Virus record (IMG/VR): IMGVR_UViG_2778261089_000001
Location: 1-40,604 of that record
DNA length: 40,604 nt
Reading direction: 5' to 3' (one strand)
Source: a virus
Lineage: Duplodnaviria > Heunggongvirae > Uroviricota > Caudoviricetes
The notes beneath the pieces were generated by a model. It saw only the letters and a program-made list of their open reading frames with translations. It searched no databases and was not told where the DNA came from. Of this stretch, positions 32,433 through 40,604 are shown in pieces. The position numbers were made by a program, and so were the translations under genes. The stretch's first letter is position 1, and each line of letters starts with the position of its first letter.

Positions 32433-32651
32433 GTGGAGAAACATATGCTGAACCTCGATTGTGTTCCAATCTCAACTTATTGCAAAGAAACTGGCGAAAC
32501 TCCTGAAGCAATAAACAAACGTGTACAGCGCGGTGTTTGGCGTGAAGGTGTTCAGGTTTTAAAGGTTGAAGGCGTTAAGGAGAGGTGGATTGACCTTAGT
32601 GAGGTTGCAAAATGGGCCAGACAAAACTGCTCAAACTACCGCGCGGCGTAA
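32433..32651 (+). CDS. xis: Excisionase-like protein
   Basis: 72-aa basic protein immediately upstream of and overlapping integrase. Confidence 0.6.
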   Translation: MEKHMLNLDCVPISTYCKETGETPEAINKRVQRGVWREGVQVLKVEGVKERWIDLSEVAKWARQNCSNYRAA

Positions 32652-33778
32652 CAATCAGGAAACACCGCCAGGGCGAAACGATCAATATAACTTTCACCTA
32701 CAAAGGAGTTAAATGTCGTGAGCCTCTTTCCAATCTGGAAGTAACACCAAAGAACATTAAATACGCCGAGCGTACACTCGGCGAAATCCATAATAAGATC
32801 GAAAAGGGAACATTCATTTATGCAGAATATTTTCCCCGTTCTGCTCGTTTGAAAATTTTTGGTAATGCTGCTGCAGGCAAAACGGTAAAGATGTACCTGG
32901 ACGAATATCTTGAAATCTGCGAAACAAGAAAACTTTCACCCTCTACGATTGGTGGCTATAAAAAATGCCGTAGGGCGTTAGCCTCACTTCACATTTGCCC
33001 TGCAAGTGAATTAACACCAGCAACCCTGAAAGCGTGGATTCAAAGCCAGAAAACAACCTTAAAAACCATTCGCAACCAGTTATCTTTCCTGCGGTCAGCA
33101 CTTGATGAAGCCGTGACCGATGGGGTACTTCAAATTAACCCCGTATCGTTAGTAACAGCTTCGCGCTACCAAAGTGATAAGTCAGAAGCAGAAAGCAGCT
33201 ATGTGGTTGATCCGCTATCACCAGCAGAAGTTGATGCATTACTAGCAGCAGCCGGAAACAAACAATGGGAAAATCTGTTCCGGTTCGCTATACATACAGG
33301 CCTGCGTAGTTCTGAACTATGTGCCCTTCGATGGCGTGATATCGACTTTGTTGGAAAAACTGCCCATGTCCAGAGCGCAAGTGTTGTCGGTGTTATCAAA
33401 GGAACAAAGACAAAAGCCGGTACTCGTAAAGTTGAACTGACAGAAGAGGCTATGTTGGCGCTGATAAATCAGAAGCCATTTACATTCATGAAGGATGCTA
33501 CTGTCTTTGAAGATCCAAAGACCAATAAGCCTTGGGCAAGTGCTGATGCAATCAGGAAAAAAGCATGGGTGCCAACATTGCGAAAAGCAGGTATTCGTTA
33601 CAGAAACCCATATCAAACCAGGCATACATTCGCCACCAGCCATATCAGTCGGGGTGCAAATTTGTTTTGGCTTGCGGCTCAAATGGGTCATAAAGGGCCA
33701 GAAATGCTTTTCAGACACTATGGCTCATATTTGAAGGAATATGATGGACAAGCAAGCCTGAAGAAGATAAAAATATAA
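32612..33778 (+). CDS. int: Tyrosine integrase (phage integrase family)
   Basis: 388 aa; arm-binding-type N-terminus, C-terminal catalytic region with R...HxxR...Y pattern. Confidence 0.9.
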   Translation: MGQTKLLKLPRGVTIRKHRQGETINITFTYKGVKCREPLSNLEVTPKNIKYAERTLGEIHNKIEKGTFIYAEYFPRSARLKIFGNAAAGKTVKMYLDEYLEICETRKLSPSTIGGYKKCRRALASLHICPASELTPATLKAWIQSQKTTLKTIRNQLSFLRSALDEAVTDGVLQINPVSLVTASRYQSDKSEAESSYVVDPLSPAEVDALLAAAGNKQWENLFRFAIHTGLRSSELCALRWRDIDFVGKTAHVQSASVVGVIKGTKTKAGTRKVELTEEAMLALINQKPFTFMKDATVFEDPKTNKPWASADAIRKKAWVPTLRKAGIRYRNPYQTRHTFATSHISRGANLFWLAAQMGHKGPEMLFRHYGSYLKEYDGQASLKKIKI

Positions 33779-33835
33779 CCCATGTCTGAACTGTTGGCCA
33801 CCATTTGTGGCCATTTCATTGAACAAGGTACACAC

Positions 33836-35569
33836 ATGGCAAATCAAATAACTAAACTAAAAAAAATAAACGTTGTAAAATTCCGGGGGCTAAAAAATAT
33901 AAATATAGAATTTGGAACTCGCCTAACTGTTATTTGTGGGAAAAATGGCACATCTAAATCAACAATTCTTGGTATTATCGCCCAGATTTTCAGTTTTACA
34001 AAAGACTTATCTAAGAATCCTGAGATTGATTTAACACAATATAAGACATTAACTAATGGCAACTTCAAGTCAGCTTTCAGTGAGCATTTTAGACTCTCAG
34101 AACAATTTGATACTGCTGGTTCAATGGACGTCAAGATTAGTGTCTATGATGGAGCATTTAACAAACATCTTGAAAAACTAACATTGGGTCTATACAGTTC
34201 CAGCGACAGGGATAAATCAAGACCAATAGTCAGGGGTAATGATTCTATCCCGGGGAAAAACCAAAGTAGAAACGTTACCCATCCTGTTATTTTTTTAAGC
34301 TTAGCCAGGCTTCTCCCTATTACCCTTCGTACTGATTACTCAACAAGAGATGTTGAGTATATCAAGAAAAATGCTGATGATATAAGAATAATGAGTAATC
34401 AACTCTTATTAAAAAACAATGGATGTTCAGTAACAGCCACAAAAGGGATTATTGATTCAATGGTTGTACATGGTGATAATTATGACTACCAATCAGTTTC
34501 TGTTGGTGAAGATAATGTAGGACAATTAATCCAAGCAATATTTTCGTTTAAAAGGCTGAAAGAACTGTATGATGACTATCATGGAGGTATTTTATTAATT
34601 GATGAAGCGGATGCAGGTCTCTTCCCTGCGGCTCAGTTAGAATTAATTAACATCCTAACCAAAGCTGCTAAAAAATATGATTTGCAAATAATCATGACAT
34701 CTCATTCCCCACTAATAATTGAAGATGTTTTCAATCGTTCCAAACAAGACCCCAAAGGCTTCAAAACAATCTACCTAACAGATACTTATGGTGATATAAA
34801 AACAAAAGATAACTTATCATGGGCTGATATAAATGCGGATTTACATGTTGAGACGGTAAAAATCGATGATAAGATTAGTCTTCCAAAAGCTAACGTTTAT
34901 TTTGAAGATAAAGAAGGCTTTGATTTTTTCAAACAATTGATAACTGACAGAAGAATAAAAAAAATATTAAATCCATTAGGAAATATAAATATTAGCTGCT
35001 CTGCCATTTTGGATTTAATGGCAAGAAAAATCCCTGAATTTACAATTAAAAGTCTGGTGGTCTTAGACGGCGATGTTGCTCTAGATAACAGTGATAATGC
35101 AAAAAAAGCAAAAAAAGAGAAAAGCTTATGCTTACTTCCAAGCATCCTACCTCCAGACCAAATGATTTTCGAATTTTTATATAATTTACCTCCTGATGAT
35201 GTATATTGGAACAATACAAATAGGTTCACAAAAGCTGTATTTTTGAGAATAGCTAAAGATATAATCACATCATTAAAGATAGGTAACTACCCTATTAACT
35301 TACAAAACTTAATAGATAATTATAGAAAAGAAAATCAAAACCATGGTGGAACGGTTAGAAAACTTTTTAAAGATTTTGCACACACGCCTCAATTTCAGGC
35401 TCTAGTCAAAGGACGAGTTAAAAATAACCCATATCGATATTGGGTCAAGAAAAATCCTGAGCAATCTGATCGTTTCAGGAATGAACTAATAAAGAGCCTT
35501 AAAGTTATTATGACAAGTGGACATGGTGTTGATTCTGCTACCATCTCATCATATCTTTCAGATAACTAA
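33836..35569 (+). CDS. OLD-family-like ABC ATPase (Walker A GKNGTSKST, Walker B LLIDEADAG) with C-terminal Toprim-like region
   Basis: P-loop, D-loop and SHSP motifs; C-terminal EDKEG and VVLDGD acidic motifs; AT-rich; ORF track start at 33782. Confidence 0.65.
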   Translation: MANQITKLKKINVVKFRGLKNINIEFGTRLTVICGKNGTSKSTILGIIAQIFSFTKDLSKNPEIDLTQYKTLTNGNFKSAFSEHFRLSEQFDTAGSMDVKISVYDGAFNKHLEKLTLGLYSSSDRDKSRPIVRGNDSIPGKNQSRNVTHPVIFLSLARLLPITLRTDYSTRDVEYIKKNADDIRIMSNQLLLKNNGCSVTATKGIIDSMVVHGDNYDYQSVSVGEDNVGQLIQAIFSFKRLKELYDDYHGGILLIDEADAGLFPAAQLELINILTKAAKKYDLQIIMTSHSPLIIEDVFNRSKQDPKGFKTIYLTDTYGDIKTKDNLSWADINADLHVETVKIDDKISLPKANVYFEDKEGFDFFKQLITDRRIKKILNPLGNINISCSAILDLMARKIPEFTIKSLVVLDGDVALDNSDNAKKAKKEKSLCLLPSILPPDQMIFEFLYNLPPDDVYWNNTNRFTKAVFLRIAKDIITSLKIGNYPINLQNLIDNYRKENQNHGGTVRKLFKDFAHTPQFQALVKGRVKNNPYRYWVKKNPEQSDRFRNELIKSLKVIMTSGHGVDSATISSYLSDN

Positions 35570-35649
35570 TTGATTAAAAAGGGTTTTATGTGATGTCCAT
35601 AAAGCCCTTTTTTTTGATATACTCTAGATCTGACATTTAGAGGTATCAT

Positions 35650-36549
35650 ATGCGTTTTAACACCCCACTTCGCTATCCTGGCGGTAAAGGCAAGCTTGCA
35701 AATTTCATACTTCGGATTATTGAAGAAAATAATCTTTCGCCTATACATTATGCCGAACCATATGCTGGAGGGGCTGGCTTAGCATTGAAACTTTTACATT
35801 TAAATGCAGCTGAAAAAATCATCCTTAATGATATTAATATTTCTGTTTATGCTTTTTGGTACAGTGTATTAAATCATGCAGATCAATTATGTTCTTTAAT
35901 TGAAAGAACTGAAGTTACAATGGATGAATGGTTTAAGCAGAAAGATATAATTAATAATCCGAAAGACCATGATCTTTTAACAATTGGTTTCTCAACCTTT
36001 TTTCTCAATAGAACAAATCGTTCTGGAATATTAAAAGGTGGAGTAATTGGCGGTAAAAATCAAGAAGGAAAATGGAAGCTTGACGCTCGCTATAATAAGA
36101 GTGATTTGATTTCTCGAATCCATAAAATATCAGAAAATCGTCACAGAATAGATTTATATAACATGGATGCAATTGATTTCATTGAAAAAATAGTCATTCA
36201 ATTGCCACAAAACTCATTAACATATTTGGATCCACCTTATTACATAAAAGGTAAAGGTTTATATATCAACCATTATGATCATGATGATCATGTTAGGGTT
36301 GCAAAAGTCGTACAGAATAATATTAAAACGCCTTGGATTGTTTCTTACGATAACACTCCTGAGATCCAAGCTATGTATAAGACATCATCATTAGTATATG
36401 GAATAAACTACAGTGCTCAAGATCGGTACAAAGGATCTGAGGTAATGTTCTTCAGTGAACGGTTGAAAATCTTTAAAACAGATGATCCAACTAAGGTAAA
36501 AGCACCTGTATTTAAAAGAGGATATGTTGACGACCACATCCAGACATAA
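35650..36549 (+). CDS. D12-class N6-adenine DNA methyltransferase (Dam-like)
   Basis: Motifs RYPGGK, EPYAGGAG and catalytic DPPY; AT-rich. Confidence 0.85.
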   Translation: MRFNTPLRYPGGKGKLANFILRIIEENNLSPIHYAEPYAGGAGLALKLLHLNAAEKIILNDINISVYAFWYSVLNHADQLCSLIERTEVTMDEWFKQKDIINNPKDHDLLTIGFSTFFLNRTNRSGILKGGVIGGKNQEGKWKLDARYNKSDLISRIHKISENRHRIDLYNMDAIDFIEKIVIQLPQNSLTYLDPPYYIKGKGLYINHYDHDDHVRVAKVVQNNIKTPWIVSYDNTPEIQAMYKTSSLVYGINYSAQDRYKGSEVMFFSERLKIFKTDDPTKVKAPVFKRGYVDDHIQT

Positions 36550-36621
36550 AAGGAGCCGCAAAAGATCCGCAGAATAAAATAGTTAGTATTAATCGTTTTA
36601 TTTCAGCTAATTATAAAAATA

Positions 36622-36654
36622 CGGACTCGGGTTCAACTCCCGCCAGCTCCACCA
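36622..36654 (+). other. ssrA: tmRNA (ssrA) 3'-end fragment = attachment-site core at prophage boundary
   Basis: CGGACTCGGGTTCAACTCCCGCCAGCTCCACCA matches the ssrA 3' acceptor/T-arm; no full ssrA upstream (MTase gene occupies that space). Confidence 0.8.
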
Positions 36655-36859: not shown

Positions 36860-38101
36860 ATGGCAAGACAAACCAAACCTCTATCCGTTAAAGAAATAGA
36901 ATCAGCCAAACCCAAGGAGGCGGACTACGTTCTCTATGATGGCGATGGCCTTGAGCTACTCATTAAATCCAGCGGGAGTAAAATCTGGCAGTTTCGCTAC
37001 ATTCGCCCTGTCACCAAGAAACGAGCAAAGAAGAGCATAGGCTCCTACCCGTCAGTTACCCTTGCCGATGCCAGAAACTACCGTGCAGAGTCCCGCTCAC
37101 TACTGGCTAAACAGATCGATCCGCAGGAACATCAGCAAGAACAATTGCGCAGTTCGCTGGAAGCCAAAACCAACACTTTCCAACTCGTAGCTGAACGTTG
37201 GTGGAATGTGAAGAAAGCCAGTGTGACAGAGGACTATGCGGAAGATATCTGGCGCTCTCTTGAAAGAGACGTCTTTCCTGCGATTGGCGACGTTAGCGTT
37301 ACAGATATTAAAGCTCATACACTGGTTCAGGCCGTACAACCGGTTCAGGCCAGAGGAGCACTGGAAACTGTTCGTCGCCTGTGCCAACGTATTAATGAGG
37401 TCATGATCTATGCCCAGAACACAGGGCTGATTGATGCTGTTCCCAGCGTTAATATCGGTAAAGCCTTCGAGAAGCCTCAGAAAAAGAACATGCCCAGCAT
37501 TCGACCGGATCAGCTACCTCAGTTAATGCAGACGATGCGAACAGCCAGCATTAGCCTTTCCACACGCTGCCTGTTCATGTGGCAACTTCTTACTATTACC
37601 CGCCCTGCCGAAGCGGCTGAAGCTCTCTGGGAAGAGGTAGACATAGAAGCGCGAGAGTGGAAGATTCCTGCAGCACGCATGAAAATGAACCGCGACCATA
37701 CTGTTCCATTGTCAGATGAAGCAATTGCGATACTAGAGATGATGAAGCCGTTAAGTGGAAATCGAGAATTTATCTTTCCCAGCCGCATCAAGCCAAACCA
37801 GCCGATGAACAGTCAGACCGTAAACGCATCGCTAAAACGCGCAGGTTTTGGTGGGGTGCTCGTTTCACACGGCCTGCGATCTATCGCCAGTACAGCCCTT
37901 AATGAGCAGGGATTTCCACCTGATGTTATTGAGGCTGCACTTGCTCATGTGGATAAGAATGAGGTTCGTCGTGCGTATAACCGTAGTGATTATCTTGAGC
38001 AGCGACGGCCTATGATGCAGTGGTGGGCTGATTTTGTGATGGCTGCAGATCACGGTAGTATGATTGAAGGAGGGATAAAGGCAATGCGGTTAGTTGGATG
38101 A
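36860..38101 (+). CDS. intA: Tyrosine integrase, P4/CP4-57 IntA-like
   Basis: 413 aa; N-terminus MARQTKPLS...YDGDGLELLIKSSGSKIWQFRY typical of P4-type integrases. Confidence 0.85.
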   Translation: MARQTKPLSVKEIESAKPKEADYVLYDGDGLELLIKSSGSKIWQFRYIRPVTKKRAKKSIGSYPSVTLADARNYRAESRSLLAKQIDPQEHQQEQLRSSLEAKTNTFQLVAERWWNVKKASVTEDYAEDIWRSLERDVFPAIGDVSVTDIKAHTLVQAVQPVQARGALETVRRLCQRINEVMIYAQNTGLIDAVPSVNIGKAFEKPQKKNMPSIRPDQLPQLMQTMRTASISLSTRCLFMWQLLTITRPAEAAEALWEEVDIEAREWKIPAARMKMNRDHTVPLSDEAIAILEMMKPLSGNREFIFPSRIKPNQPMNSQTVNASLKRAGFGGVLVSHGLRSIASTALNEQGFPPDVIEAALAHVDKNEVRRAYNRSDYLEQRRPMMQWWADFVMAADHGSMIEGGIKAMRLVG

Positions 38102-38181: not shown

Positions 38182-38208
38182 AAACCCTGCTCTTAAGCAG
38201 GGTTTTTA
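38182..38208 (+). terminator. Rho-independent terminator (possibly bidirectional) between int and convergent large ORF
   Basis: CCCTGC-TCTTAA-GCAGGG followed by TTTTTAT. Confidence 0.6.
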
Positions 38209-38239: not shown

Positions 38240-40543
38240 CTATTTTAAATCAGCCTTTGCGGCTCGAATATCTGCGTTTTTTGCTGAGTATTCCCATTCG
38301 TCAGCGATTCTAAATAGCATTGCAGAAGTACGGACGCAGTGGGGCATTGAATTTGCCCATTCTCGGTACTGCTCAGCTAATATCCTTTCTTGGTTTCCAC
38401 CTTCGTAACGCATACGAGCAAATACCCCCCTTTTATTGTACCTACCAATTTGTATACCTTGCTCTAACTCATCAGAAGATAATATTTCAATGATGTGCCG
38501 AATTGCTTCATGTGGCCAGGAATTATCTACTGAGCTATTAGGGGCATGTGCCAGAATTTTTCCTATTACATGATCAGTGATTTCTTGGCGATGATGCAAT
38601 TTTGCTAAATGGCGTACATTCTCACACCAATCTTCAAGTTTATCTTGATCAATTTCATTGTCTATCTGCCCTGGTAGTATTCGTAATTTTTCAAGTAATC
38701 TGTATATAGAAGTAGCTCTTTTAACTTCCAACTCCGATGGTTCTGTTTGTTCATCTTCGTCACTACGATATACAATACATATTGCTTCTATAAAAACCTC
38801 TGGCTTTTTCATCATTAGACGATGCAGGATAAGTGGCTCATCGCTATCCGGAAAACAAGGCAAGTAGGTCATTTCTTTAAATGCCAAATCTGTTTCAGAA
38901 ACATCGTTACGTTGTTTGAGTTCATCAAAAACTTTTTTTACATAGTACGATAGCATTGTATCAAATTGGATATCCTGGCTATTTATTTCTTTAACGACTA
39001 TATCTAGAAGATATAAAAGTGTTGTAGATGGAATCTCAGAAAGGCGTTGATTTGCTGATATAATAGCAGCAAGACCCCGGCCCCTTTCTATATATTTATC
39101 CATAAGAACAAATAAATCCGAAGTTTTACCCATCATTGCAATGGGTTGTTTTTGCAACCAATATTTTTCGTTGATGTTATCTTCAAACCCTTCAATAATG
39201 CTCCATATCTCTTGTGAGTCTCTTAACGATGCTAAGATTTTCCCAGCCCTATCAGGGGTAATTTTAAACTGTTTAAAATACACTTTTATTTTATTAAGCC
39301 ATTCAGCACCAAAGCATTCAACACCATATTGCATTAACAACCCACAAACTTCATCAATATTTTTTTTGTTGTTAATAAGCATTACAAACAAATCATTTAA
39401 TTTTTCTTCATCCAACGAGAGTGCTGATATATGCCTTGCTGCAATAAAAACATTATTAACTTGTTGAAAAAGGTCTTTCACCCCAGACAAACCTAAAGTA
39501 AAGTATATTTCCCTAAGTTTTTCACTTCGCATTTCTTCGACAGAAGAAAAAATTCCGCCAGCATTTTCAATTGACTCTTCAATATCAGAATCCCAATCAT
39601 TGAAAATCCATAAACTGGCTCTAACCATGTCAATTGGTTTATAATTATCAAGTATTTTCGCTATTTTTTCCATAGACTCAAATTTAAATGCCCAGTTCGC
39701 ATCTGAATATTTTTTATGGCGAGAATACTCATGACGCAAAGCCTCCCATACGATGAACTGATCCTCTTCAGTTTGTTGAGAAAGGCAAAGTTCAAGATGA
39801 GAAAGTGTTTCATCTATTGCATTCTCAGGGAATGAGCTTAAATGAGAGATTAGGATTTCCCATCTTGTTGGGAGTATACCTGCAAGTTTAATTGCTTCTT
39901 GGATAATAAAGATTTGCCCCTCCCAAACAACGCCCCACGTTAGTTTTTCTACATCTTTATCCGACTCTCTGAACTTCATTTTTTGGTTTTGATCAGAGGT
40001 ATCATGGGAGCGAGGAAGGAGATTTTGTAACAAACTCCACCCAATACTAGGAACAATAGTGATAATTTTTTTTATAATTGCATTTCTAACTTTTACTGGT
40101 GCCCATGTATTAGGAGACCATGCCAGAAAAATGGTTCTTAAACTATTAAGAGGGCGATCTGAGTAAGTTCCTCCGGGATCTATTACAGCGAGTTTTGCAA
40201 GACAGATTGCAGCGCGTAATAGATATGTTTGTTCCCAAGCCAAGGCTTCCAATGCCCATTTTAATCCATGATAATGACTTCGAGGAGTTAACAGCCCTTT
40301 ATCTTCATTGAATATTGGAGCAATCATTTCCCCATTGCCCTTAAGCAATTGCTCAAGGGCATCAAGGAAAGGGCCAGGGGCAGCTTCTGCCAGCAGCGGA
40401 AGTTGATCTCGCAAACTAACAAATAGTCGATGGTCGTTAGCAAGTCCCGGAATACTCTGAACTATTTTGTTAACAAAATCTTGGGGTGTCATACCAGTAA
40501 CCCGGAATTCGGCCTGTTCATGTAATATGATCTTACCCAGCAA
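38240..40543 (-). CDS. Large hypothetical protein (767 aa), AT-rich island cargo
   Basis: Long uninterrupted ORF in low-GC DNA; helix-rich composition, no recognised motif. Confidence 0.6.
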   Translation of the reverse strand: MLGKIILHEQAEFRVTGMTPQDFVNKIVQSIPGLANDHRLFVSLRDQLPLLAEAAPGPFLDALEQLLKGNGEMIAPIFNEDKGLLTPRSHYHGLKWALEALAWEQTYLLRAAICLAKLAVIDPGGTYSDRPLNSLRTIFLAWSPNTWAPVKVRNAIIKKIITIVPSIGWSLLQNLLPRSHDTSDQNQKMKFRESDKDVEKLTWGVVWEGQIFIIQEAIKLAGILPTRWEILISHLSSFPENAIDETLSHLELCLSQQTEEDQFIVWEALRHEYSRHKKYSDANWAFKFESMEKIAKILDNYKPIDMVRASLWIFNDWDSDIEESIENAGGIFSSVEEMRSEKLREIYFTLGLSGVKDLFQQVNNVFIAARHISALSLDEEKLNDLFVMLINNKKNIDEVCGLLMQYGVECFGAEWLNKIKVYFKQFKITPDRAGKILASLRDSQEIWSIIEGFEDNINEKYWLQKQPIAMMGKTSDLFVLMDKYIERGRGLAAIISANQRLSEIPSTTLLYLLDIVVKEINSQDIQFDTMLSYYVKKVFDELKQRNDVSETDLAFKEMTYLPCFPDSDEPLILHRLMMKKPEVFIEAICIVYRSDEDEQTEPSELEVKRATSIYRLLEKLRILPGQIDNEIDQDKLEDWCENVRHLAKLHHRQEITDHVIGKILAHAPNSSVDNSWPHEAIRHIIEILSSDELEQGIQIGRYNKRGVFARMRYEGGNQERILAEQYREWANSMPHCVRTSAMLFRIADEWEYSAKNADIRAAKADLK

Positions 40544-40604
40544 TAGTGGACACGCGGCTAAGTGAGTAAACTCTCAGTCAGAGGTGACTCACATGACAAA
40601 AACA

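What the first reader, a model, noticed from the sequence alone, without database searches (positions are those of the whole stretch)
38240..40543. 767-aa orphan protein in AT-rich DNA directly downstream of the IntA-type integrase
This is the first cargo gene of the second island, in an integrase-proximal position where defence and accessory systems accumulate. It is convergent with int and separated from it by a terminator hairpin. The protein looks helix-rich with no catalytic motif I can recognise. Any partner genes may lie beyond the window end.
Basis: inference. Interest (0 to 1): 0.5.

Follow-up and report, generated by a model that had tools for sequence, protein, structure and literature searches.

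The report
IS3-cut remnant of Avs8-like gene
The "767-aa orphan" is the back 61% of a 1,248-aa E. coli island gene cut by an IS3 insertion; only the helical sensor half of a likely anti-phage sensor-nuclease distantly related to Avs8 survives, so it is probably a dead remnant.

Summary
The ORF at 38240-40543(-) is real, AT-rich (GC 0.375), convergent with the IntA-type integrase and separated from it by a hairpin terminator. It is neither complete nor an orphan.

- **Truncation.** An IS3 left end starts at 40528. The ORF's TTG start and first five codons lie inside the IS3 inverted repeat.
- **Parent gene.** Residues 6-767 are 100% identical to residues 487-1248 of WP_000871158.1, the intact 1,248-aa gene in E. 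coli O104:H4. Removing two IS3 copies from strain GE3 restores that gene.
- **Family.** It has 7,045 50%-identity clusters, mostly about 1,250 aa, across many bacterial phyla. It has no Pfam, NCBIfam or PADLOC match.
- **Closest relatives.** Top Foldseek hits are SAMD9, Avs4 and Avs5. The solenoid is distantly homologous to the Avs8A/PD-lambda-4A sensor (hhalign 85%, E 6e-6). Avs8A is the divergent neighbour in intact islands.

The window keeps only the sensor. It is most likely an inactive remnant of an Avs8-like defence gene.

The parts
38240..40527 (-). 3' remnant of the 1,248-codon gene: codons 487-1248 plus the stop. Encodes only the C-terminal alpha-solenoid 'sensor' region.
40528..40543 (-). 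Chimeric ORF start: TTG plus 5 codons (MLGKI) supplied by the IS3 inverted repeat, not by the gene.
   Evidence: Sequence read directly. IS3 IRL position found. The native sequence at this point is ...LLHMAILHEQ.
40528..40604 (+). Left end of IS3: IRL TGATCTTACCCAGCAATAGTGG..., with the orfA ATG at about 40593. The window ends 77 bp into the element. The target-site duplication is ATA (40525-40527).
   Evidence: Identical to the ends of two complete 1,258-bp IS3 copies in E. coli GE3, annotated as IS3 family transposase. This stretch accounts for the matches in 4,281 of 5,426 E. coli genomes.
38182..38205 (.). Bidirectional intrinsic-terminator hairpin between the convergent int and the remnant.
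   Evidence: 10-pair stem, 5 GC pairs, T-rich tail on both strands. MFE -16.5 kcal/mol, z -3.06.
36860..38101 (+). IntA/CP4-57-type tyrosine integrase of the ssrA island.
   Evidence: NCBIfam PRK09692 positions 1-413 of 413, E 5.4e-281. Identical gene (WP_000113815.1) sits directly after ssrA in GE3 and O104:H4.
36621..36654 (+). Partial copy of the 3' end of ssrA (tmRNA), followed by the ssrA terminator. It marks the junction between the upstream prophage and the int island.
   Evidence: Alignment with the GE3 ssrA-int region: identity starts here and runs through int. No full tmRNA or tRNA in the window.

Best explanation
The ORF is the 3' 61% of a gene broken by an IS3 insertion. The parent gene (1,248 codons, intact as WP_000871158.1 in E. 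coli O104:H4) sits between the ssrA-island integrase and the divergently transcribed Avs8/PD-lambda-4 operon.

The parent encodes a single-chain receptor built like an antiviral STAND (Avs) protein, in three parts:
- (i) an N-terminal PD-(D/E)xK restriction-endonuclease-fold domain, about residues 1-140, with invariant D54 and E74 and nearly invariant K84, D88 and R92;
- (ii) an NBD-helical-winged-helix module with a STAND/AAA+ fold, in which the Walker A loop is replaced by AADSPDEV, so classical NTP binding is lost;
- (iii) a roughly 760-aa alpha-solenoid that is distantly homologous to the sensor of Avs8A.

Inferred mechanism of the intact protein: the solenoid binds a phage protein, plausibly a capsid-type structural protein as Avs8A does. 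Binding releases auto-inhibition or drives oligomerisation, and the nuclease then degrades DNA to abort infection.

In this window only part (iii) survives, fused to 5 IS3-derived codons. Without the nuclease and the oligomerisation module it is most likely an inactive pseudogene remnant.

Shown: the truncation, the parent gene, the folds and the family size. Inferred: nuclease activity, protein sensing and the defence role.
For: Truncation:
- IS3 IRL at 40528, with the ORF start inside it.
- PHROG 18693 coverage of profile positions 488-1255 of 1258.
- 100% identity to residues 487-1248 of the intact protein.
- In GE3 the gene lies in three pieces (profile positions 1-66, 65-489, 488-1255). 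Excising two 1,258-bp IS3 copies, with 3-bp duplications ATA and CAT, restores a 1,248-aa ORF.
- The insertion site is uninterrupted in 75 of 185 E. coli genomes that carry it.
- No N-terminal part exists elsewhere in the window.

Family:
- Homologues are almost all about 1,250 aa.

Architecture:
- AF2 model of a homologue's first 893 residues: pLDDT 89.9, pTM 0.81.
- The Foldseek top five are SAMD9 (three entries), Avs4 and Avs5, with probabilities 0.97-1.0.
- No Walker A at the expected position in 217 full-length members.

Link to Avs8:
- hhalign of the family against an Avs8A alignment: Prob 85.5%, E 5.7e-6, 664 colinear columns.
- An Avs8A HMM hits family members at E 1.6e-5 with Z set to 1e6, always on the same block.
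- Avs8A/B are the next genes in the intact island and are experimentally validated (10.1101/2025.07.02.662641; PMC13581612).

Context:
- The gene sits next to integrases and to type I RM, AbiE, Avs4, REases, PDC-S01, NsnA and TA genes, with no conserved partner.
- A subclade carries fused N-terminal HTH domains, as expected for a toxic, self-regulated effector.
Against: - No experiment bears on this family.
- PADLOC (2023), Pfam and NCBIfam give no hit, even for full-length members.
- The Avs8 link is only 85% by hhalign, and the NBD itself did not align.
- The canonical (D/E)xK lysine is absent: the motif reads WEFG, with a conserved K ten residues later. Nuclease competence is therefore inferred.
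- Loss of Walker A leaves the activation mechanism unclear.
- The remnant is still an open frame, 100% identical to the intact allele, with a possible ATG at codon 18 (RefSeq annotates a 750-aa protein). Expression of a sensor-only protein cannot be excluded.
Confidence: 0.8

Rival explanations
1. The ORF is a complete, stand-alone 750-767-aa helical protein, an orphan island cargo or defence gene, as the first reader proposed and as RefSeq annotates it (WP_000188801.1, 750 aa).
For: It is an uninterrupted ORF. RefSeq lists it as a hypothetical protein in many genomes. A few database entries of similar length exist (P0015 at 767 aa, P0197 at 750 aa).
Against: The start lies in IS3. The ORF aligns only to the C-terminal 61% of a family whose members are about 1,250 aa in 76 of 76 species genomes examined. 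The missing 5' pieces are found next to the IS3 copies in GE3. The break falls in the middle of a predicted helix.
Confidence: 0.03
2. The truncation reading is correct, but the parent protein is not a protein-sensing Avs-type receptor. It could instead be a DNA-directed enzyme, such as a type IV or modification-dependent restriction nuclease, or an island maintenance or exclusion factor, in which the solenoid is a scaffold or a DNA-binding surface.
Against: The whole-chain Foldseek matches are STAND receptors (SAMD9, Avs4, Avs5), not restriction enzymes. The solenoid aligns colinearly with the Avs8A sensor, and Avs8A is shown to bind capsid protein (10.1101/2025.07.02.662641). An Avs8 homologue that naturally lacks nucleotide-binding residues is described in PMC13581612.
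Confidence: 0.15
3. The sensor-only remnant is expressed and has a function of its own, for example as a decoy that sequesters a phage protein or as a modulator of the neighbouring Avs8.
For: The frame is open and identical to the intact allele. The same IS3-interrupted allele is found in about 110 of 185 genomes. A weak promoter-like site lies at 40492-40464.
Against: Promoter-like sites are no more frequent than in shuffled sequence (10 found against 8.0 +/- 3.0). There is no clear ribosome-binding site before the ATG at codon 18. Identity to the intact allele is equally expected from a recent insertion that spread clonally. In this window the Avs8 partner is not visible.
Confidence: 0.04

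Closest known systems
Avs8A / PD-lambda-4A (E. coli WP_000963924.1; Vassallo et al. 2022; 10.1101/2025.07.02.662641; PMC13581612)
   Same: Same three-part plan: an N-terminal restriction-endonuclease-fold nuclease, a STAND-type module and a long helical sensor, at a similar length (1,283 against 1,248 aa). The sensor regions align colinearly over 664 columns (hhalign 85.5%, E 5.7e-6). The two genes are adjacent and divergent in the same ssrA island.
   Different: Avs8A has an intact Walker A (GLSGVGKT, invariant) and a classical Mrr D...QxK motif. This family has AADSPDEV in place of Walker A and a WEFG...K nuclease motif. PADLOC PD-Lambda-4_A models do not hit it. There is no Avs8B-like partner. 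The NBDs did not align at sequence-profile level.
'KpAvs8' of Lee et al. 2026 (PMC13581612): an Avs8-cluster protein with a natural absence of nucleotide-binding residues
   Same: It is described as an Avs8-type sensor with degenerate Walker A/B motifs, which is the combination seen here. K. pneumoniae carries a 94%-identical homologue of this gene (P0004).
   Different: Identity could not be tested, because the accession is in a supplementary table that is not held. It may be the same family or a different degenerate Avs8 branch.
Avs4 (PDB 8dgf) and Avs5/SAMD9 (PDB 9nc9, 9zjv)
   Different: No detectable sequence similarity. The sensors differ. Low TM-scores (0.17) reflect different domain packing.
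Dsr1 and other non-STAND proteins carrying the Avs7 sensor (PMC13581612)
   Same: A precedent for an Avs-type sensor working without an active STAND NTPase.
   Different: Dsr1 has a SIR2 effector and no NOD-like module. The sensor family is different.

Membership tests
Complete protein-coding gene (as annotated: 767 or 750 aa) | Native start codon and N-terminus belong to the gene | tested here: not met
   The TTG and codons 1-5 lie in the IS3 IRL. The ORF covers only positions 488-1255 of the 1258-position family profile and residues 487-1248 of the intact protein.
STAND NTPase / Avs (antiviral STAND) | Walker A P-loop GxxxxGK[ST] after strand 1 of the NBD | tested here: not met
   The loop is AADSPDEV or variants in all aligned members. 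No GK[ST] at that position in 217 full-length members.
STAND NTPase / Avs (antiviral STAND) | NBD-helical-winged-helix (NOD) fold | tested here: met
STAND NTPase / Avs (antiviral STAND) | N-terminal effector plus C-terminal repeat sensor of at least 400 aa | tested here: met
Avs8 / PD-lambda-4 | Match to the PD-Lambda-4_A family model | tested here: not met
   PADLOC gives 0 hits for the fragment and for three full-length members, while the neighbouring gene scores E = 0.
Avs8 / PD-lambda-4 | Sensor homologous to the Avs8A sensor | tested here: inconclusive
Avs8 / PD-lambda-4 | Activation by HK97-fold major capsid protein, and anti-phage protection | not testable with these tools
   Needs co-expression toxicity and plaque assays with the intact allele.
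PD-(D/E)xK nuclease | Catalytic D ... (D/E)xK triad | tested here: inconclusive
   Invariant D54 (GFDG) and E74 (WEFG) lie on adjacent strands. The xK position is G, with a nearly invariant K84 on the following helix. The spatial arrangement was not checked because no model coordinates were available.

The most novel reading that the evidence does not exclude
The parent family is unannotated: it has 7,045 clusters at 50% identity across many bacterial phyla, with members in an archaeal and a CPR genome bin. It may be a major, nucleotide-independent branch of Avs-type immune receptors: a STAND-derived nuclease sensor that has lost its P-loop everywhere yet is maintained at a constant 1,250 aa. 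If so, activation would not need NTP exchange. Intact alleles, for example in E. coli O104:H4, would form a second capsid- or structural-protein sensor beside Avs8 in the same island. The window itself would still hold only a dead copy.
Probability: 0.45. Interest if true: 0.6.

Novelty: new member of a known kind. Interest (0 to 1): 0.3.

Why it matters
For this window the practical point is annotation. A "hypothetical protein" listed in RefSeq for many E. coli genomes is an IS3-generated gene fragment and should be flagged as a pseudogene, not counted as island cargo or a candidate defence gene.

The wider point is the parent family. It is very large, is missed by Pfam, NCBIfam and PADLOC, and looks like an Avs8-related receptor whose NTPase has lost its nucleotide-binding loop. 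If the intact allele protects against phage, it would give a tractable E. coli model for how a STAND-derived receptor can fire without NTP binding. It would also add a widespread family to defence-system catalogues. Lee et al. 2026 already report one P-loop-less Avs8 (KpAvs8), so the concept is not new.

Tried and rejected
Searches that gave nothing:
- Pfam, NCBIfam and PADLOC scans of the fragment and of full-length members returned no hits.
- A profile search of PDB sequences found nothing meaningful; the best E was 0.18.
- tblastn against 50,697 phage records gave no match, so despite the PHROG hit this is not a gene of deposited phage genomes.
- Literature searches by accession found nothing for this gene (WP_000871158, WP_000188801), only its neighbour.
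- Supplement searches for the accessions and for the AADSPDEV motif in Lee et al. found nothing, so identity with KpAvs8 could not be settled.

Tool failures:
- The first profile search of the representative library failed because the profile exceeded 1,200 positions. It was redone with a C-terminal alignment.
- The afdb50 fold library was unavailable.

Hypotheses rejected:
- A conserved partner gene: immediate neighbours in 76 species genomes share no family beyond integrases (6 of 137) and AbiEi (5 of 137).
- A tRNA or tmRNA in the window as the attachment site: none is present, only a 34-bp ssrA 3' copy.

Full report
**1. Observation**

The six-frame ORF list shows one uninterrupted ORF at 38240..40543 on the minus strand: 767 codons with a TTG start.
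- Its GC content is 0.375, against 0.492 for the window and 0.495 for the adjacent integrase gene.
- The integrase (36860-38101, plus strand) matches NCBIfam PRK09692 over all 413 positions (E 5.4e-281). It is the same protein (WP_000113815.1) that follows ssrA in other E. coli genomes.
- The two genes converge on a 10-bp-stem hairpin at 38182-38205. The scan reads it as a terminator on both strands, and it folds better than all 200 shuffles.

**2. The ORF is a fragment**

Three independent results show this.
- PHROG 18693 matches residues 5-767 at E = 0, but only to profile positions 488-1255 of 1258.
- The last 77 bases of the window (40528-40604) are the left end of IS3 (TGATCTTACCCAGCAATAGTGGACACGCGG...). 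This end is present in 4,281 of 5,426 complete E. coli genomes and is annotated there as IS3. The ORF's TTG and its first five codons (MLGKI) lie inside that inverted repeat.
- Residues 6-767 are 100% identical to residues 487-1248 of WP_000871158.1. That is an intact 1,248-aa hypothetical protein of E. coli O104:H4 located between the same integrase and the next operon.

In strain GE3 the gene lies in three pieces (77 aa, 432 aa and 750 aa), which match profile positions 1-66, 65-489 and 488-1255. The pieces are separated by two complete 1,258-bp IS3 copies. Removing both copies, each with one copy of its 3-bp duplication (ATA and CAT), restores a 1,248-codon frame beginning MKWIKALNLQQW.

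A 200-bp probe across the empty insertion site is uninterrupted in 75 of the 185 genomes that carry it. The second site is uninterrupted in 58 of 153. No N-terminal part is present anywhere else in the window.

**3. It is not an orphan**

- A word-indexed search found more than 350 homologues, nearly all 1,240-1,275 aa, in Burkholderia, Comamonadaceae, Rhizobium, Xanthomonas and others.
- A profile of the C-terminal region, searched against 1.84 billion cluster representatives, found 7,045 proteins at E <= 1e-3 and 4,034 at E <= 1e-30.
- One peptide pattern recovered at least 595 species genomes. These span Proteobacteria, Acidobacteriota, Bacteroidota, Actinomycetes, Cyanobacteria, Planctomycetota, Chloroflexota, a Methanosaeta bin and a Gracilibacteria bin.
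- In the 76 of 80 retained loci where the gene was found, the ORF is mostly 1,240-1,290 codons. A subclade of about 1,355 codons also exists.
- None of these proteins has a Pfam, NCBIfam or PADLOC match apart from fused HTH domains. No PDB sequence matches.
- The family is absent from 50,697 phage records and present on 24 plasmids.

**4. What the parent protein looks like**

Two AlphaFold2 models were built with a 47-sequence alignment.

*The first 893 residues of a homologue* (pLDDT 89.9, pTM 0.81) show the following:
- an alpha-beta-beta-beta-alpha-beta domain at 1-140;
- a beta-alpha-beta core at 216-294;
- helices, then a winged helix at 354-418;
- the start of the solenoid.

Foldseek against the PDB ranks three SAMD9 entries, Avs4 and the Avs5 filament as the top five (E 2.4e-5 to 3.6e-4, probability 0.97-1.0).

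In the alignment:
- The nuclease domain has invariant D54 (GFDG) and E74 (WEFG) and nearly invariant K84, D88 and R92.
- The position where a STAND NTPase carries GxxxxGK[ST] reads AADSPDEV or a variant in every member, while a Walker-B-like LVVD(T/S) and a following ...LPR are kept.
- No Walker A is found at that position in 217 full-length members.

The IS3 break at residue 486/487 falls inside the first helix of the solenoid. The window therefore retains the sensor-like region only.

**5. Link to Avs8**

In intact islands the next genes, transcribed divergently, are WP_000963924.1 (1,283 aa) and WP_000443183.1 (248 aa).
- They match PADLOC PD-Lambda-4_A and PD-Lambda-4_B at E = 0 and 2e-164.
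- They are the ECOR07 Avs8A and Avs8B studied in bioRxiv 10.1101/2025.07.02.662641. [quoted passage not shown]

Profile-profile comparisons gave these results:
- Family against a single Avs8A sequence: 60.7% probability.
- Family against a 21-sequence Avs8A alignment: 85.5%, E 5.7e-6, with 664 colinear columns (family 406-1154 against Avs8A 441-1165).
- An Avs8A HMM also hits individual family members, with best E 1.6e-5 at a nominal database size of 1e6. The hit is always on the same block (Avs8A 558-685 against family about 530-670), which lies inside the window fragment.

Lee et al. (Nature 2026, PMC13581612) classify Avs8 as a capsid-sensing STAND. [quoted passage not shown] K. pneumoniae carries a 94%-identical homologue of the present gene. 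I could not obtain the KpAvs8 accession, so identity is a lead and not a result.

**6. Context**

Six individual loci and the immediate neighbours in 76 species genomes show no conserved partner.
- The most frequent neighbour families are phage integrases (6 of 137 ORFs), AbiEi (5) and Arm DNA-binding domains (4).
- Single cases include type II and type III restriction enzymes, Avs4, PDC-S01, NsnA, PD-T4-2, SoFic, RloB and HipA.
- Nearby in the individual loci are a type I RM system, a DEAD/YjiV_N/MZB helicase, and the SymE and ParDE toxin-antitoxin modules.
- The tmRNA locus is defence hotspot #9 of the E. coli pangenome (PMC10121019).
- The roughly 1,355-aa subclade carries N-terminal Xre-, LexA- or MerR-type HTH domains.

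This is the pattern of a stand-alone, horizontally mobile gene that is probably toxic if unregulated.

**7. Mechanism**

*Shown:* domain order nuclease fold - NOD-like fold without a P-loop - solenoid; conserved acidic residues in the nuclease domain; distant homology of the solenoid to a capsid-binding sensor.

*Inferred:* the intact protein is held inactive until its solenoid binds a phage protein. It then oligomerises or opens and cleaves DNA. Because the P-loop is gone, this step would not depend on NTP exchange. The precedents are KpAvs8 and the non-STAND carriers of the Avs7 sensor such as Dsr1.

*For the window copy:* the nuclease and the NOD-like module are missing, so the most likely state is a non-functional remnant. 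I put about 0.97 on the truncation, about 0.65 on the Avs-like defence role of the parent, and about 0.9 on the remnant being inactive.

**8. Rivals**

- A complete orphan protein is excluded by section 2.
- A DNA-directed role for the parent (type IV-like restriction, or island maintenance) is not excluded. It is supported by the restriction-enzyme hits, the lost P-loop and the HTH fusions. The whole-chain matches to STAND receptors and the Avs8 sensor alignment argue against it.
- A functional sensor-only product (a decoy) cannot be ruled out computationally. It has no positive support: promoter-like sites occur at background frequency, and there is no clear ribosome-binding site before the internal ATG.

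**9. Novelty and score**

The feature in the window is an IS-generated pseudogene fragment, which is ordinary. Its parent belongs to a known kind (Avs-type receptors related to Avs8) but to a family that current domain and defence libraries do not recognise. That family may already be represented in the literature by KpAvs8. Interest for this finding: 0.3. The novel-case entry gives the family-level reading, with probability 0.45 and interest 0.6 if true.

Noticed in passing
window 33782-36549 (+): An AT-rich (GC 0.33) two-gene cassette lies between the prophage integrase (32612-33778) and the ssrA repeat. It consists of a 595-aa ABC/OLD-type ATPase (PtuA/AriA/GajA-like, best E 2.8e-20) and a 299-aa Dam-family methyltransferase that matches PADLOC PD-Lambda-5_B at 7e-124. 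The ATPase does not match PD-Lambda-5_A among its best hits, so this may be a variant pairing.
   Followed up: partly
window 1-36654: The first 36.6 kb is a prophage (structural genes on the minus strand, integrase at 32612-33778) inserted into ssrA. Its right junction is a 34-bp copy of the ssrA 3' end at 36621-36654. Two integrative elements therefore sit in tandem at the tmRNA site. E. coli NWU_3 has the same layout.
   Followed up: partly
window 40528-40604; L001 14379-14460: The window stops exactly 77 bp into IS3. This would fit a short-read contig ending in a repeat, for example an assembly k-mer of 77. The 'complete' genomes NWU_1, NWU_3 and NWU_4 show only about 78 bp of IS3 here, directly abutting yghU-side DNA. 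That could be a real deletion or a scaffolding artefact.
   Followed up: no
proteins P0182, P0219, P0221, P0245, P0253, P0114 (homologues of about 1,320-1,374 aa): A subclade of the family carries an extra N-terminal DNA-binding domain of varying type (Xre HTH_3/HTH_31, LexA_DNA_bind, MerR-like HTH_17). RefSeq annotates plasmid copies as 'helix-turn-helix transcriptional regulator'.
   Followed up: partly
protein P0111 (1,177 aa): One homologue has a different N-terminal region (FSTGGGGAHFE...DGFNTDDL...LGQVKH) in place of the usual nuclease domain. It has a D...QxK-like motif that suggests a swapped nuclease module. There was no Pfam hit and it was not modelled.
   Followed up: no
protein P0001 (911 aa; cluster of 2,059 member sequences): Many E. 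coli assemblies carry a 911-aa ORF call that starts at residue 338 of the intact protein (MSVLARQ...). This implies further disrupted or mis-started alleles besides the IS3-split one.
   Followed up: no
L072 (Methanosaeta sp. UBA80 bin), L080 (Gracilibacteria bin): Full-length family members occur in an archaeal and a CPR metagenome bin. This points to very wide horizontal spread, if the binning is correct.
   Followed up: no
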